The notes: generated by a model not told the origin, from the sequence alone. DNA of 64,000 nt from a marine bacterium AO1-C (GCA_001890965.1 MLAY01000008.1:360341-424340), one strand, 5' to 3'; positions 47,436 through 51,760 are shown, counted from the first letter of the stretch. Numbers and translations are program-made.

Positions 47436-48473
47436 TTAACCATTTGCTGGCGTAGTAGGTGTAATATCTCTACTGCCATCGACTCTGGTTTCTCCCAAAG
47501 TAGGGCGCTTGGGTAGTTCTTGCATATGATTCTTTACCAAATATACCACCTGGCGAATGTGTTCACGACCCAATATGCTATAGAACTTTAGCGTTTGATG
47601 AGATTTGTTTTTACGTTTTTTGATCAAATCAACCTGAAGGTATTCCTGTACATCGCGTCGAGCATAGGCGGTAATTGCCTGAATGGCTTTGATATTATCT
47701 ATAGATAATTGATGACGATACAATGGCAACCAACGATTTTTGACAATCAAATGCGTAGGGGTAATGATAAACTTTTTCTGGGGATACACCATCAAGCCAT
47801 ACAATACACCCATCGTCAACAAAAACCCAAAGGGGCTTTCCTGTAATACTCCAGTCACCGCAGCGGCAATCAAAAAGGTTAATAAAAGCACAAATAAGGC
47901 AACAATGTAGCTATTGAGTAATGAGTGCTCAAAGGTAACTTTATTACCAACTACCTCTCCCACAGGCAGGTTTTTCTCTTGTACTGCCACACCTACTTCG
48001 TGCAATTCTCTGGCAACCTGAAGTAATTCCTTTTTTTCCCAACGATCATTTTTTGTGGTAAGGGTACCAATCACTTTTTGCGTTTTGGCAGATCTCAATT
48101 CCAGCGTTACAAACACTCCCTCATGTAATAACACCGCAGTTGTACGGGCAAATTGCACAAAGCCCCGCGCTTTAAGCTTTTCCAATTGGATTTTTTGCTT
48201 ACCATCATCGATACGTAATTTATAGATTAGCTGCAGGCGGTCACTCTCACGAGTTTTGAGGAAGTGCTCACCCAATAGGGCTGCCACAATAAGGCCACTC
48301 ATGGCAATGCTAATGTCAACAAAAAACTCCCTCCAGGTAGGAAAAAGCGACAACATGATAAAGACAACTCCCCAAATAATGATTAAGGCGAGTACAATGC
48401 CTAAAAGCTTGGGTACGGTAATTTCTGGCTTACGATCGGAGGCAATATATGTTTTTCGAGATGGTGGTGTCAT
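47436..48473 (-). CDS. membrane protein E: 2 TM + novel ~85-aa domain + 2 TM + bacterial PH (bPH_2/YdbT-like) domain
   Basis: LQLIYKLRIDDGKQKIQLEKLKARGFVQFARTTAVLL…GTLTTKNDRWEKKELLQV (shared domain); KKFIITPTHLIVKNRWLPLYRHQLSIDNIKAI (bPH-like). Confidence 0.55.
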   Translation of the reverse strand: MTPPSRKTYIASDRKPEITVPKLLGIVLALIIIWGVVFIMLSLFPTWREFFVDISIAMSGLIVAALLGEHFLKTRESDRLQLIYKLRIDDGKQKIQLEKLKARGFVQFARTTAVLLHEGVFVTLELRSAKTQKVIGTLTTKNDRWEKKELLQVARELHEVGVAVQEKNLPVGEVVGNKVTFEHSLLNSYIVALFVLLLTFLIAAAVTGVLQESPFGFLLTMGVLYGLMVYPQKKFIITPTHLIVKNRWLPLYRHQLSIDNIKAIQAITAYARRDVQEYLQVDLIKKRKNKSHQTLKFYSILGREHIRQVVYLVKNHMQELPKRPTLGETRVDGSRDITPTTPANG

Positions 48474-48485
48474 ATTATCTTCAAG

Positions 48486-49469
48486 TTAGGCGTCAGACAT
48501 TTTTTTCATTTGCTTAGTGACCAAAAAGGCTATTTGTTGTTGGTTTTTAGCAGTTACTTTAGAGTAAAACTTCCTGATAATGTGTTCATTATACGTTTTT
48601 GTTTTTATAACCAAACGCTTGGTATTATGGTCATCGTCTAAGTCTTCGAACTTTATGCTATAAATGTGATGCGTAGGAATCTTATGTCTGTAAAAAGGAA
48701 TCCAACGATTTTGAACAAGCAAATATTTAGGAGTAATTACGAAACGCTTTTGGTTATACATAAACACCCCATAGATTAAAAGGCCTAATATAAGAATAAA
48801 AAGAGCATTCTCGAGCAGTTTGCTGTACATGATGGTGGCTATGCTCATTGTTACAAGGATAATAGAAGCCCAAATAGTGTTTTCATTGATGGCTTTGCTT
48901 TTAAACACAGCTTTGTTGCCTACAATTTGGCCAGCCTCTTTTACACGCTTTTTTACTTGCATGCCAGCTTGCTCCAGCAAAGTTACTATTTCTAATACAT
49001 CGTCTCTGTCCCATCGGTCATCTTCGTTGGTAATGGTTCCGTGTAGCTGTCCCGAAGCGATAGACCAAAAGCCAATGCTTACAAATAAGCCTTCTTCAGT
49101 AAATAAAGCATAGGTTTTGGCAAAATCAACATAGCCTTTCTTTTTGTGCTTGGTAAGGTATACTCTTTGTTGTGCTTCTTCAATACGCAAACCATACACA
49201 TATTGCAGACGCTTTGCTTTTTGTTGTTGCTTCCGTAAGGAGTAACCTAACCAACTGGCACCTATCATGGTAAGTAATAAAGCAAGAGCGAGCATTTCTT
49301 CGCCTGAGAGGTAATCTTCAAAAAAGAGGGCAAATTCAGCAGCTTGTCCAAATATGCCTGCTACAGCAGACAATACTACAAAAACGCCTAAAACATATCC
49401 CCAAAGTGAAAATTGAGGGATGGTTTCATTTGCCTGAAAGTTATAAACGGAATGGGCGGAAGTGTTCAT
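48486..49469 (-). CDS. membrane protein D, paralog of E (same architecture)
   Basis: LQYVYGLRIEEAQQRVYLTKHKKKGYVDFAKTYALF…GTITNEDDRWDRDDVLEI; KRFVITPKYLLVQNRWIPFYRHKIPTHHIYSI. Confidence 0.55.
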   Translation of the reverse strand: MNTSAHSVYNFQANETIPQFSLWGYVLGVFVVLSAVAGIFGQAAEFALFFEDYLSGEEMLALALLLTMIGASWLGYSLRKQQQKAKRLQYVYGLRIEEAQQRVYLTKHKKKGYVDFAKTYALFTEEGLFVSIGFWSIASGQLHGTITNEDDRWDRDDVLEIVTLLEQAGMQVKKRVKEAGQIVGNKAVFKSKAINENTIWASIILVTMSIATIMYSKLLENALFILILGLLIYGVFMYNQKRFVITPKYLLVQNRWIPFYRHKIPTHHIYSIKFEDLDDDHNTKRLVIKTKTYNEHIIRKFYSKVTAKNQQQIAFLVTKQMKKMSDA

Positions 49470-49505
49470 AATTCATAAGTTTGATCTGTTTATTTTTAAA
49501 TTTTA

Positions 49506-50045: not shown

Positions 50046-50335
50046 AAGCTTGATCAGTTAGTTTGTACTACATCATCCTAGCAGACATTTTAGCTAATGT
50101 TAGTAGCGAGGACATGGTCAATGAATACTCGAGAAAACCTCTATTATCGCCTGACTTTTCCAAGCTAGACGCTCCTTGTTCATTTAGAATTTGAATTAAA
50201 TATTAAATCTCAAAAATAGAGTATAGTAAAGCCTGTTCGTTTTTTCTGCAGCGAAAAAAACGAATCCAAAATATTCAATTACATATTTAGAAGATTAGCT
50301 ATTGTGCTAAATCAGCTTTGAATCAGATAATATAT

Positions 50336-50626
50336 CTAATCCAAGTCTTGAATGCACAAACGCCAAAAGAAAGCCATGAGGGCAAACAATCCGCTCATTA
50401 CCCAAATGAAGGGGCGATGTAGGTAGTACTCAAACTTGATTCCTAATACTAAGAATCCAGCAGATAATACCAAGGTGATGGGAACAATGACCATCATTGC
50501 AAAGGTGATGATACGGGCCAATGAATAGGCCCTATTAGAAGAGGGTTGGGTGATATGATTCATAATTTTTAAAGTTTGATCTATTGACTTATTTCCTACT
50601 ATTATATACTGTTTGTTATACCTCAA
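50336..50626 (-). CDS. small 2-TM membrane protein B
   Basis: 96 aa; 9 bp downstream of A. Confidence 0.4.
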   Translation of the reverse strand: MRYNKQYIIVGNKSIDQTLKIMNHITQPSSNRAYSLARIITFAMMVIVPITLVLSAGFLVLGIKFEYYLHRPFIWVMSGLFALMAFFWRLCIQDLD

Positions 50627-50635
50627 GGTTTCAAA

Positions 50636-51760
50636 TTATTGAACAGATTCGCTCTCTGTTGCATTGGCTCTTAGCTTGAAAAAAATCCTATATAAACGTT
50701 TTTCTTGCTTGAGAATTTGTGCGAAGAATATTGGAAAAATAAACATAAAGATAAAAGCTATAATGTTTACAATGTTATTATAATTACTCAAGCTTTCAGC
50801 TTCCTTAAAATAGTCGGTACTGCTTCCTCCCATATGCATATTATCAACCATTTTCGATAATAAGATTCTGCTTTTTACCCAAACATAAATCACACTTAGT
50901 TGAAAAAACACATTGACTGCCCACCAAATATTAATCAAAGCCGCACCTCGCACCACCTGCTCTGGTACAACATCTTTGATTCTTAATTGTATTTTTTTCC
51001 ATATTTCTTTCACAATCAAATAAGGGTAAATCCACCAGGTAATAGGTATAAAAAACGACCAACCTACTTGACGATCAGAGAACTTCATGTTGCACCCAAG
51101 CCTTCTTAAATTGGTATAAGCCCGAGTTGCCCAAAGTACGTACAAGATGAGTTCGGCTAAAATTACCCCACAGAAAATAAACAATCCTGCGCCAACTATA
51201 TAGTAGGCATTGAGAAGCGCATTCAGATTAAAACCACTGCTATTTTTTAGATACAAAACCCCACCAAACACCAGCACTACAAATAAACATATAATTCCAA
51301 TTTTGGCCCAAGAAAGTATCAAGGTAACTTTCCCTATATCCGCGTTATCTTTGAGGCCTCCTTCAAAACTATTGTACAAATTAGCGTTAGAAGAAGTATT
51401 CATTCCAGGGCGATGTTGTACTTTTTCCTGAATTTGTACTCTGGCTATTTTCAATTCTTGCCTTATTTGTAGCAAATCTTCGGTACTCCATTGCCCTTCT
51501 TTGTTGGTAAGGGTGCCCAGAAGTTTGTTATTTTTGATAGACCACAATTCAATTTTAATTACGTCTTCTATTTGGATAAACTTGACTTGAGTAGTTTCAA
51601 AGCGAAGAAAGCCTCCTCCTTGCGCCTTTTGCAGGTTAATCTTTTGGGTAGAAGGGTCAATGCTAATCTCAAAAACGGGTTCGGGGGTATCGGCAGAGGA
51701 AGGGGAAAATTTGCTTTCCAATGCTACATATACGGGATTGGCACGGGTGGATTCGTTCAT
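50636..51760 (-). CDS. membrane protein A: N-terminal shared ~85-aa domain + DUF4328-like multi-TM domain
   Basis: N-term …VFEISIDPSTQKINLQKAQGGGFLRFETTQVKFI…GTLTNKEGQWSTEDLLQI; C-terminal TMs with …YTNLRRLG…GWSFFIPITWWIYPYLIVKEIW, resembling the DUF4328 signature as I remember it. Confidence 0.5.
   Translation of the reverse strand: MNESTRANPVYVALESKFSPSSADTPEPVFEISIDPSTQKINLQKAQGGGFLRFETTQVKFIQIEDVIKIELWSIKNNKLLGTLTNKEGQWSTEDLLQIRQELKIARVQIQEKVQHRPGMNTSSNANLYNSFEGGLKDNADIGKVTLILSWAKIGIICLFVVLVFGGVLYLKNSSGFNLNALLNAYYIVGAGLFIFCGVILAELILYVLWATRAYTNLRRLGCNMKFSDRQVGWSFFIPITWWIYPYLIVKEIWKKIQLRIKDVVPEQVVRGAALINIWWAVNVFFQLSVIYVWVKSRILLSKMVDNMHMGGSSTDYFKEAESLSNYNNIVNIIAFIFMFIFPIFFAQILKQEKRLYRIFFKLRANATESESVQ

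What the first reader, a model, noticed from the sequence alone, without database searches (positions are those of the whole stretch)
47436..51760. One ~85-aa domain grafted onto three different membrane scaffolds in four adjacent genes
A, C, D and E all contain an alignable segment with the pattern L.Y.LRI…K..L.K.K..G.V.F……F…L………GT.T…D.W…LL. For example, LQLIYKLRIDDGKQKIQLEKLKARGFVQF…GTLTTKNDRWEKKELLQV in E and LQYVYGLRIEEAQQRVYLTKHKKKGYVDF…GTITNEDDRWDRDDVLEI in D.

The scaffolds differ:
- A: the domain is N-terminal to a DUF4328-like multi-TM domain.
- C: it follows a single TM region.
- D/E: it sits between two TM hairpins upstream of a bPH_2 domain, and is predicted cytoplasmic.

A mobile domain recombined onto different anchors in one operon suggests a ligand- or partner-binding module diversified by duplication. 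I do not recognise it as a named family; it could itself be a divergent PH-like fold.
Basis: seen in the sequence. Interest (0 to 1): 0.65.

Follow-up and report, generated by a model that had tools for sequence, protein, structure and literature searches.

The report
Membrane-tethered PH-like domain paralog array
Four neighbouring membrane-protein genes of a marine Cytophagales bacterium share a previously unnamed ~87-residue cytoplasmic domain that is predicted to have the pleckstrin-homology (PH) fold; it is a real but very narrowly distributed new family of a known kind of bacterial membrane-anchored PH protein.

Summary
Genes A, C, D and E (minus strand, 47436-51760) each hold one copy of an ~87-aa segment. 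The copies align without gaps, score 34-74 bits pairwise, and beat all 2000 shuffles.

The family is tiny: about 11 clusters among 1.84 billion representative proteins, all from Microscillaceae/Cytophagales and all at one syntenic chromosomal site.

There are four architectures:
- domain + DUF4328
- TM hairpin + domain
- TM hairpin + domain + TM hairpin + EbsA-like PH module (not bPH_2)
- domain alone

All share an N-terminal VYxAL motif. Copy number varies from 1 to 5 per locus, with pseudogene remnants.

The adjacent DUF4157 toxin-like genes F/G and gene H are absent from two lineages that keep the array, so that link is facultative.

Most likely this is a cytoplasmic, membrane-proximal oligomerisation or partner-binding module, like known bacterial PH proteins. 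Function is inferred, not shown. It is a new member of a known kind, of modest interest.

The parts
50636..51760 (-). Gene A (374 aa): N-terminal motif, PH-like domain, then a DUF4328 multi-TM domain
   Evidence: ORF. DUF4328 (PF14219) E 7e-15, 55.4 bits, aa 191-306. TM helices at 147-165, 185-206, 273-291 and 329-347.
51419..51679 (-). Copy of the shared PH-like domain in A (aa 28-114)
50336..50626 (-). Gene B (96 aa): small protein with two TM helices and no PH-like domain. Conserved between A and D in close relatives.
   Evidence: 82 %, 67 %, 82 %, 71 % and 73 % identical orthologues in L003, L009, L012, L013 and L016.
50071..50202 (-). Weak, stop-interrupted resemblance to the first third of the domain. 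Possibly a decayed fifth copy; not established.
   Evidence: E 0.07 with the 4-sequence HMM. 32 % identity over 44 aa to C across a stop codon, E 0.016. Not recovered with the 13-sequence HMM.
49506..50045 (-). Gene C (179 aa): N-terminal motif, probable TM hairpin, PH-like domain and nothing else. Present only in this genome among close relatives.
   Evidence: No orthologue in L003, L009, L012, L013 or L016.
49527..49787 (-). Copy of the shared PH-like domain in C (aa 87-173)
48486..49469 (-). Gene D (327 aa): N-terminal motif, TM hairpin, PH-like domain, TM hairpin, C-terminal PH-like (EbsA-related) module
48942..49208 (-). Copy of the shared PH-like domain in D (aa 88-176)
48489..48884 (-). 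Second module of D (aa 196-327): TM hairpin plus C-terminal domain, homologous to that of E and P0016
   Evidence: Alignment A5. EbsA PF17255 reaches 29 bits in homologue P0016 and 15-16 bits in three others, with no hit for D itself.
47436..48473 (-). Gene E (345 aa): same architecture as D. The one member present in every related locus long enough to judge (two short contigs, L010 and L015, cannot be judged).
47970..48236 (-). Copy of the shared PH-like domain in E (aa 80-168). This is the sequence modelled.
47508..47912 (-). Second module of E (aa 188-322): TM hairpin followed by six strands and a C-terminal helix
   Evidence: Full-length AF2 model, pLDDT 74.5 overall and 80-89 in most of this module
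45580..47088 (-). Gene F (502 aa): basic hydrophilic N-terminus, DUF4157/eCIS_core zincin domain (HELTH), and an unannotated ~290-aa C-terminal domain. An adjacent, facultative cassette.
   Evidence: PF13699 E 1.8e-10. No PDB, Pfam, PADLOC or PHROG hit for the C-terminal part.
43755..45464 (-). Gene G (569 aa): tandem paralogue of F (51 % identity)
   Evidence: PF13699 E 4.9e-11. BLASTP F against G.
42766..43752 (-). Gene H (328 aa): hydrophobic N-terminus read as a signal peptide (no signal-peptide predictor was run), no recognised family. Starts 2 bp after G and always co-occurs with F/G.
   Evidence: Co-occurrence.

Best explanation
**What it is.** The segment is a new, lineage-restricted sequence family of the PH-like superfold. 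It belongs to the same structural and architectural kind as the bacterial PH (PHb) domains that sit on the cytoplasmic side of TM hairpins.

**How it arose.** It is part of a common N-terminal module: a VYxAL(E/D) motif, an optional TM hairpin, and the PH-like domain. This module multiplied by tandem duplication at one chromosomal site in Microscillaceae. It became joined to different C-terminal parts:
- nothing (C)
- a second 'TM hairpin + EbsA-like PH' module (D, E)
- a DUF4328 polytopic domain (A)

**How it most likely works (inferred).** The domain is held at the inner face of the cytoplasmic membrane and acts as an oligomerisation or partner-binding module. It would assemble the co-expressed paralogues (A, C, D, E, perhaps with the small protein B) into homo- or hetero-oligomeric membrane complexes. 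This is what was proposed for PHb rings.

**Physiological role.** It is probably membrane transport or protection, of the YdbS/YdbT or DdE/DdF type. In some lineages it may serve the neighbouring leaderless DUF4157 toxin-like proteins.

**Shown here:** homology, fold prediction, topology logic, rarity, and copy-number and architecture turnover. **Inferred:** oligomerisation and physiological role.
For: **Homology.** Gapless alignment, 34-74 bits, z 12-34.

**Fold.**
- AF2 pLDDT 93.3, pTM 0.82, with six strands, a helix and a final strand.
- The best Foldseek hits are also FACT PH domains.

**No named family.**

**Cytoplasmic side.** The positive-inside pattern fits, and A has no signal peptide.

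**Full-length E model.** TM hairpin, PH1, TM hairpin, then a six-strand-plus-helix module.

**Functional constraint.** The domain is the best-conserved part of A (72 % against 45 % for DUF4328) and of D (84 % against 63-79 %) between orthologues.

**Family census.** About 11 clusters in 1.84e9 representatives, in four architectures.

**Shared N-terminal motif.** Present in all architectures.

**Copy-number turnover and remnants.**

**Architecture changes within lineages.** The C-type P0014 groups with A-type domains of its own genome in the NJ tree, which has no support values.

**Precedent.**
- PHb families are mostly TM proteins with intracellular PHb domains. PHb domains form C5 and C12 rings, and were hypothesised to mediate oligomerisation of membrane transporters or pores (PMC2817789).
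- The PH-domain proteins DdE and DdF are required for export of leaderless enterocin DD14 (PMC8657885).
Against: - There is no experimental or co-folding evidence for oligomerisation.
- No conserved basic patch or obvious ligand site exists. Only G, F, S and W are invariant, with L, K and L nearly so.
- No sequence-level link to any PH-clan family could be shown. hhalign between the domain and the D/E C-terminal module gives probability 0.6 %.
- The family is so narrow that no independent phylogenetic co-occurrence test is possible.
- The association with F/G/H breaks down in L009 and in L011+L014.
Confidence: 0.55

Rival explanations
1. The array is an export or self-protection accessory for the leaderless DUF4157 proteins F and G. 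The membrane PH proteins would help move the toxin-like proteins out of the cytoplasm, or shield the membrane from them, as DdE/DdF do for enterocin DD14.
For: - A-E and F-G-H lie on the same strand in one block. The E-F gap is only about 110 bp in L001 and L005.
- F and G have no signal peptide. They have the basic, hydrophilic N-terminus plus DUF4157 typical of eCIS-associated toxins (PMC8213781; PMC11297309).
- The DdE/DdF precedent (PMC8657885).
- No eCIS structural genes lie in the 64-kb window that could otherwise carry them.
Against: - The array is kept intact where F/G/H are absent: L009 has A-B-D-E, and L011+L014 has five PH genes.
- The E-F gap is about 350 bp in this window and in L003.
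- F and G are 500-570-aa proteins, unlike small bacteriocins.
- An eCIS may lie elsewhere in the genome.
- No ABC transporter is present in the block.
Confidence: 0.15
2. The array is a set of diversified (orphan) immunity proteins. Their cytoplasmic PH-like domains would neutralise incoming or self DUF4157-type toxins.
For: - It is a tandem array of diverged paralogues next to toxin-like genes, in a variable island between conserved flanks: an Ada-like regulator and an MR_MLE epimerase.
- Copy number runs from 1 to 5, with pseudogene remnants.
- The array persists without the toxins, as orphan immunity genes do.
Against: - The genes lie upstream of the toxins, not downstream.
- They are large polytopic membrane proteins.
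- The shared domain is the most conserved part between orthologues, not hypervariable.
- H sits 2 bp after G and co-occurs strictly with F/G, so it is the more conventional immunity or partner candidate.
- No PADLOC or immunity-family hit.
Confidence: 0.12
3. The proteins form a housekeeping or stress-response membrane system unrelated to toxins. It could, for example, be controlled by the divergently transcribed Ada-like AraC/MGMT regulator, with the PH-like domain sensing or binding a cytoplasmic or lipid ligand.
For: - In every locus that extends upstream of the array (window, L001, L003/L004, L005-L007, L009, L011), the array begins about 160 bp from, and divergently to, the AraC-HTH + O6-methylguanine methyltransferase gene.
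- E-type genes are present in all lineages regardless of F/G/H.
Against: - The adjacency may be plain synteny among close relatives.
- No conserved ligand-type motif is visible.
- No functional data exist.
Confidence: 0.13
4. The similarity is chance or low-complexity resemblance, and the four genes do not share a real domain.
For: None found. The only weak point is that the pair C-D scores just 33.9 bits.
Against: - z-scores are 11.8-34.4, with 0 of 2000 shuffles reaching the observed score.
- The HMM finds only these four copies in the window.
- Orthologues keep the domain.
- The AF2 model is confident.
Confidence: 0.01

Closest known systems
Bacterial PH (PHb) domains on TM hairpins: Pfam bPH_2 (PF03703, formerly DUF304; e.g. 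B. subtilis YdbS/YdbT, E. faecalis DdE/DdF) and relatives DUF1200 and DUF2244
   Same: - A small beta-sandwich-plus-helix domain placed just after a TM hairpin on the cytoplasmic side.
- It occurs singly (C) or as tandem 'hairpin + PH' modules (D/E), like the multi-repeat YdbT.
- Several PH proteins are co-encoded in one operon.
- The strand count before the helix is reduced (six), as noted for PHb families that lack beta1 (PMC2817789).
   Different: - No HMM match to bPH_2 or any PH-clan family at E <= 10.
- An extra strand follows the helix.
- A conserved N-terminal VYxAL motif lies ahead of the hairpin.
- One architecture (A) has no hairpin and is fused to DUF4328.
- It is confined to a few Microscillaceae. 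The experimentally characterised bPH_2 examples cited here (YdbS/YdbT, DdE/DdF) are from Firmicutes; the wider distribution of bPH_2 rests on my own knowledge, not on a tool result.
Pfam EbsA-like proteins (PF17255)
   Same: The second module of D/E-type proteins (TM hairpin plus about 90 aa of six strands and a helix) is homologous to that of P0016, which passes the EbsA gathering score (29.0 bits against 25.9). Three more homologues score 15-16 bits.
   Different: - The window's own D and E give no EbsA hit.
- The shared 87-aa domain itself shows no relation to this module (hhalign probability 0.6 %).
Eukaryotic PH-superfold domains (FACT Pob3/Spt16/SSRP1 PH modules, PTB, FERM F3, TFIIH p62/Tfb1 PH)
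   Different: - Sequence identity is 6-18 % only.
- No phosphoinositide-type basic motif is conserved.
- The bacterial membrane-tethered context differs.
- The resemblance is one of fold, not demonstrable homology.
DUF4157 / eCIS_core (PF13699) toxin-like proteins with neighbouring accessory genes
   Same: F and G have the hydrophilic basic N-terminus, the HExxH DUF4157 domain and an unannotated C-terminal domain, as described for eCIS-associated toxins.
   Different: - No eCIS structural genes lie in the window.
- The papers read do not mention PH-domain or DUF4328 partners.
- The PH array also exists without them.

Membership tests
PH-like superfold (fold level) | Antiparallel beta-sandwich (classically 7 strands) capped by a C-terminal alpha-helix | tested here: met
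PH-like superfold (sequence level, any Pfam PH-clan family) | Significant HMM match to a PH-clan family (PH, bPH_1-6, GRAM, EbsA, ...) | tested here: not met
   hmmscan of all 13 domain sequences at E <= 10 lists no PH-clan family. A PDB profile search gives only chance WD40-like hits at E about 0.8.
bPH_2 (PF03703) | HMM match above the gathering score | tested here: not met
   No bPH_2 hit for A, C, D or E at E <= 1. None for the isolated shared domain or for the D/E C-terminal modules at E <= 10.
bPH_2 (PF03703) | Two TM helices immediately N-terminal to an intracellular PH domain | tested here: met
   Met for C, D and E: hydropathy, positive-inside counts and the AF2 helices 20-43 and 45-80 of E. 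Not met for A, where the domain is N-terminal with no preceding TM.
EbsA-like (PF17255), for the C-terminal module of D/E | HMM match above the gathering score (25.9 bits) | tested here: inconclusive
   The window's D and E give no hit. Homologue P0016 scores 29.0 bits (E 1.5e-6). P0009, P0012 and P0015 score 15-16 bits. Membership follows only by transitive homology through alignment A5.
DUF4328 (PF14219), for A | HMM match above the gathering score (27.2 bits) | tested here: met
   55.4 bits, E 7e-15, aa 191-306. Orthologues are annotated with the same family.
DUF4157 / eCIS_core (PF13699), for F and G | HMM match above the gathering score (22 bits) and an HExxH motif | tested here: met
   41.3 and 43.1 bits. 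HELTH is present in both.
eCIS-associated toxin (EAT), for F and G | Encoded within about ten genes of an eCIS operon (sheath, tube, baseplate, AAA ATPase) | tested here: not met
   No eCIS structural family appears in the Pfam scans of the window's ORFs. The rest of the genome is not available here.
PHb oligomeric ring assemblies | Cyclic homo- or hetero-oligomerisation through the PH domain | not testable with these tools
The precedent comes only from PMC2817789.

The most novel reading that the evidence does not exclude
The shared unit would be a PH-like domain split by a transmembrane hairpin. The conserved N-terminal VYxAL strand would be the missing first strand of the fold. It is contiguous with the domain in A-type proteins but separated from it by an inserted TM hairpin in C/D/E-type proteins.

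The paralogues would use this domain to build a hetero-oligomeric cytoplasmic ring. That ring would join three different membrane parts (DUF4328, the EbsA-like module, and B) into one previously undescribed membrane machine. The machine would handle the neighbouring leaderless DUF4157 toxins.
Probability: 0.12. Interest if true: 0.6.

Novelty: new member of a known kind. Interest (0 to 1): 0.3.

Why it matters
This adds a new, unnamed sequence family to the bacterial PH-like domains. It is a compact natural example of domain-architecture evolution: in one small tandem array the same cytoplasmic module sits alone, behind a TM hairpin, in a double 'hairpin + PH' protein, and in front of DUF4328.

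It gives DUF4328 and the EbsA-like module a shared partner domain, which is a first handle on two families of unknown function.

If the array does serve the adjacent DUF4157 proteins, it would suggest an eCIS-independent handling route for such toxins. The very narrow distribution (a few Microscillaceae genomes) limits wider impact.

Tried and rejected
1. A word-indexed search of 5.8e9 proteins with the 4-domain alignment found nothing. The exhaustive HMMER search was needed.
2. Hits P0018-P0024 of that search were judged spurious. They are long proteins with 4-17 short matched stretches of 20-38 profile positions, E 6e-8 to 7e-4. They look like beta-propeller or repeat proteins, consistent with the chance WD40/coatomer hits in the PDB. 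They were not examined further.
3. The bPH_2 assignment for D/E was rejected.
4. An internal-duplication test (shared domain against the D/E C-terminal module) showed no detectable sequence relation (hhalign probability 0.6 %).
5. 'B plus the downstream remnant is a broken C-like gene' was rejected. B is a conserved intact gene in five related loci. The remnant stays a weak lead only.
6. The function of the F/G C-terminal domain and of H was not found. There were no Pfam, NCBIfam, PADLOC, PHROG or PDB hits, singly or as profiles. A homologue search returned only one close relative.
7. No plasmid copies of A or E exist. The phage collection was not searched.
8. Promoter and terminator scans were no better than shuffles.
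9. Rfam found only two tRNAs far from the locus.
10. The afdb50 fold library was unavailable.
11. An obligatory link to DUF4157 was rejected on L009 and L011+L014.

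
Full report
**1. The observation**

The region holds a same-strand (minus) block of genes:

| Gene | Coordinates | Length |
|---|---|---|
| A | 50636-51760 | 374 aa |
| B | 50336-50626 | 96 aa |
| C | 49506-50045 | 179 aa |
| D | 48486-49469 | 327 aa |
| E | 47436-48473 | 345 aa |
| F | 45580-47088 | 502 aa |
| G | 43755-45464 | 569 aa |
| H | 42766-43752 | 328 aa |

A formal MAFFT alignment of A, C, D and E brings one segment into register without a single gap: A aa 28-114, C 87-173, D 88-176, E 80-168.
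- Pairwise BLASTP of the excised segments gives 33.9-73.6 bits.
- Local-alignment z-scores against 2000 shuffles are 11.8-34.4, and no shuffle reaches the observed score.
- An HMM of the four copies, searched against all six frames of the window, recovers exactly those four (132-134 bits). The only other match is a faint, stop-interrupted one in the B-C spacer (50071-50202, E 0.07).

**2. Not a named family**

Pfam, NCBIfam, PADLOC and PHROGs give nothing for the segment. A profile search of all PDB sequences gives only chance hits at E about 0.8. Pfam confirms DUF4328 in A (55.4 bits) and eCIS_core/DUF4157 in F and G (41-43 bits). It does not find bPH_2 in D or E.

**3. Fold**

AlphaFold2 on an 8-sequence alignment (the four paralogues plus four E orthologues) gives a confident model: mean pLDDT 93.3 and pTM 0.82. 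It has six beta-strands, a helix (68-80) and a final strand.

The residues invariant across all 13 copies aligned are G25, F29, S49 and a Trp (W66) just before the helix. Homology to any PH family is not demonstrable by sequence.

**4. The scaffolds**

Hydropathy and K/R counts and a full-length model of E (pLDDT 74.5) give the order: N-terminus, TM hairpin (20-43, 45-80), PH-like domain, short beta linker, second TM hairpin (188-229), then a second six-strand-plus-helix domain (233-319).

That second module is not bPH_2. Its homologue P0016 passes the Pfam EbsA gathering score (29.0 against 25.9 bits). Three other homologues score 15-16 bits, and the window's own D and E give no hit. A profile-profile comparison of the shared domain with this module finds no relation (probability 0.6 %).

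C has one strong and one weak hydrophobic helix, with the charge pattern of a hairpin. By inspection, the C-type homologue P0014 has two hydrophobic stretches ahead of the domain. A has the domain at its N-terminus without a signal peptide, followed by DUF4328.

The positive-inside rule places the domain in the cytoplasm in all four.

All architectures also share a short N-terminal motif of the form xVYxAL(E/D)xKP. So the shared unit is a whole N-terminal module, and the TM hairpin is present or absent between the motif and the PH-like domain.

**5. Distribution**

The organism is 'marine bacterium AO1-C' (Cytophagales).
- E has only seven relatives at E <= 1e-3 in the 5.8-billion-protein index.
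- An exhaustive HMMER search of 1.84 billion representatives with the domain profile finds 18 proteins. About 11 of them are true members. The rest are long repeat proteins with many short stretches.
- GTDB species representatives yield two loci, from a Microscillaceae MAG and an uncultured Cytophagaceae MAG.

Members fall into four architectures:
- domain + DUF4328 (P0010, P0013, P0017)
- D/E type (P0007, P0009, P0012, P0015, P0016)
- hairpin + domain (C = P0008, P0014)
- a 132-aa soluble form (P0011)

**6. Locus comparison**

Every related contig that reaches the flanking genes carries the array at the same site, between an Ada-like AraC/MGMT regulator gene and an MR_MLE epimerase gene. Content varies:

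| Locus | Content |
|---|---|
| L003, L004, L012, L013 | A-B-D-E-F-G (then H in L003, L004 and L012; L013 ends within G) |
| L016 | A'-A-B-D-E-F-G... |
| L001 | D'-E-FG-H |
| L005 | D-type remnant, E-FG-H |
| L009 | A-B-D-E, followed by an unrelated convergent gene |
| L011 + L014 (two contigs of one sample, inferred to be contiguous) | C-type, A, A, D, E, followed by a TPR gene and MR_MLE, without F, G or H |
| L010 | three consecutive D/E-type genes |

- C is unique to AO1-C among close relatives.
- H accompanies F/G wherever they occur and is missing where they are missing.
- Between orthologues, the PH-like domain is the best-conserved part of A (72 % against 45 % for DUF4328) and of D.
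- In a neighbour-joining tree of the domains (no support values), the C-type P0014 groups with the A-type domains of its own genome rather than with C of the window. This indicates architecture changes within lineages.
- At DNA level the paralogues in the window are old: only a 51-nt, 71 % repeat links A and E.

**7. Neighbours F, G and H**

F and G are tandem paralogues at 51 % identity. Each has a Lys/Gln-rich hydrophilic N-terminus, a DUF4157 HExxH domain and a conserved ~290-aa C-terminal domain. That pattern is described for eCIS-associated toxins (PMC8213781; PMC11297309).

Neither that C-terminal domain nor H (which has a hydrophobic N-terminus read as a signal peptide) matches anything in Pfam, NCBIfam, PADLOC, PHROGs or the PDB. 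No eCIS structural genes occur in the window.

**8. Mechanism**

*Shown:* a confidently predicted PH-like fold, tethered to the membrane on the cytoplasmic side, under purifying selection, multiplied in tandem on different membrane parts.

*Inferred:* its role. The closest known kind is the bacterial PH (PHb) domain.
- Xu et al. (PMC2817789) showed that PHb domains form C5 and C12 rings.
- They noted that most PHb families are TM proteins with an intracellular PHb domain.
- They proposed that PHb-mediated oligomerisation builds membrane transporters or pores.
- The PH-domain proteins DdE and DdF are needed to export a leaderless bacteriocin (PMC8657885).

The best-supported reading is therefore that the shared domain is an oligomerisation or partner-binding module. 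It would assemble the co-encoded paralogues into membrane complexes with a transport or protection role.

Rivals are:
- a dedicated export or protection role for F and G. This is weakened by arrays that lack F, G and H.
- an orphan-immunity array. This fits the turnover and the persistence without toxins. It fits poorly with the conservation of the domain, the position upstream of the toxins, and H being the tighter partner of F and G.
- a toxin-independent function, perhaps tied to the divergent Ada-like regulator.

None of these can be settled with the available tools.

**9. Novelty and verdict**

In kind, however, it is another membrane-anchored bacterial PH-like domain. It is new as a sequence family and in its fusion to DUF4328, and it is confined to a few Microscillaceae genomes. 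I rate it a new member of a known kind, with an interest score of 0.3.

The most novel reading still open is a PH fold split by a TM hairpin that nucleates a hetero-oligomeric machine for DUF4157 toxins. I give that about 12 %.

Noticed in passing
window 50071-50202 (-), in the 290-bp spacer between genes B and C: A stop-interrupted reading frame weakly resembles the first third of the PH-like domain (LEK..RGFLEY). E is 0.07 against the 4-copy HMM. Identity to C is 32 % over 44 aa. It could be a decayed fifth copy, but the 13-sequence HMM does not recover it.
   Followed up: partly
window 44932-45221 vs 46604-46893 (genes G and F): The DUF4157-encoding parts of the tandem paralogues F and G are 83 % identical at DNA level over 290 nt. 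The proteins are only 51 % identical overall. This suggests gene conversion or much stronger constraint on the N-terminal part than on the C-terminal domain.
   Followed up: no
window 42766-43752 (-), gene H: A 328-aa protein with a hydrophobic N-terminus that I read as a signal peptide, in no known family, starting 2 bp after G. It is present in every related locus that has F/G and extends past them, and absent from those that lack them. That makes it the likeliest immunity or partner protein of the DUF4157 proteins.
   Followed up: partly
window 43755-47088 (-), C-terminal ~290 aa of F and G: A strongly conserved orphan domain follows DUF4157. Its invariant motifs include KLRDCxNAN, GYNxHFATNIM and EGLADH..WYFS.YG. 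There is no Pfam or PDB match. The invariant Cys and His hint at a thiol-enzyme toxin, but this was not tested.
   Followed up: partly
L005 3373-3639 (also L006-L008): An 88-aa ORF upstream of the E-type gene matches only the C-terminal half of the PH-like domain (HMM positions 49-88, E 4e-8). tblastn similarity to D and E continues downstream to 3780. This is a pseudogenised D-type copy.
   Followed up: yes
L009 4963-6003 (-); L014 2262-3404 (-): In two lineages the F-G-H cassette is replaced. L009 has an unrelated 346-aa protein with no Pfam hit. L014 has a 380-aa TPR protein. So the site downstream of E is a variable island between conserved flanks.
   Followed up: partly
window 51921-52793 (+): An Ada-like fusion protein (AraC HTH plus O6-methylguanine-DNA methyltransferase with a PCHR active-site motif) is transcribed divergently, about 160 bp from gene A. 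It keeps this position in every related locus that extends upstream of the array. A regulatory link to the array is possible but untested.
   Followed up: no
window 37199-37271 and 37313-37387 (-): Two tandem tRNA-Glu(TTC) genes with identical Rfam scores, about 5 kb beyond the end of the locus.
   Followed up: no
window 31113-33053 (+): A 646-aa leucine-rich-repeat protein lies next to a 7TMR-DISM histidine kinase (28993-31065). LRR proteins are uncommon in bacteria and are often host-interaction factors.
   Followed up: no
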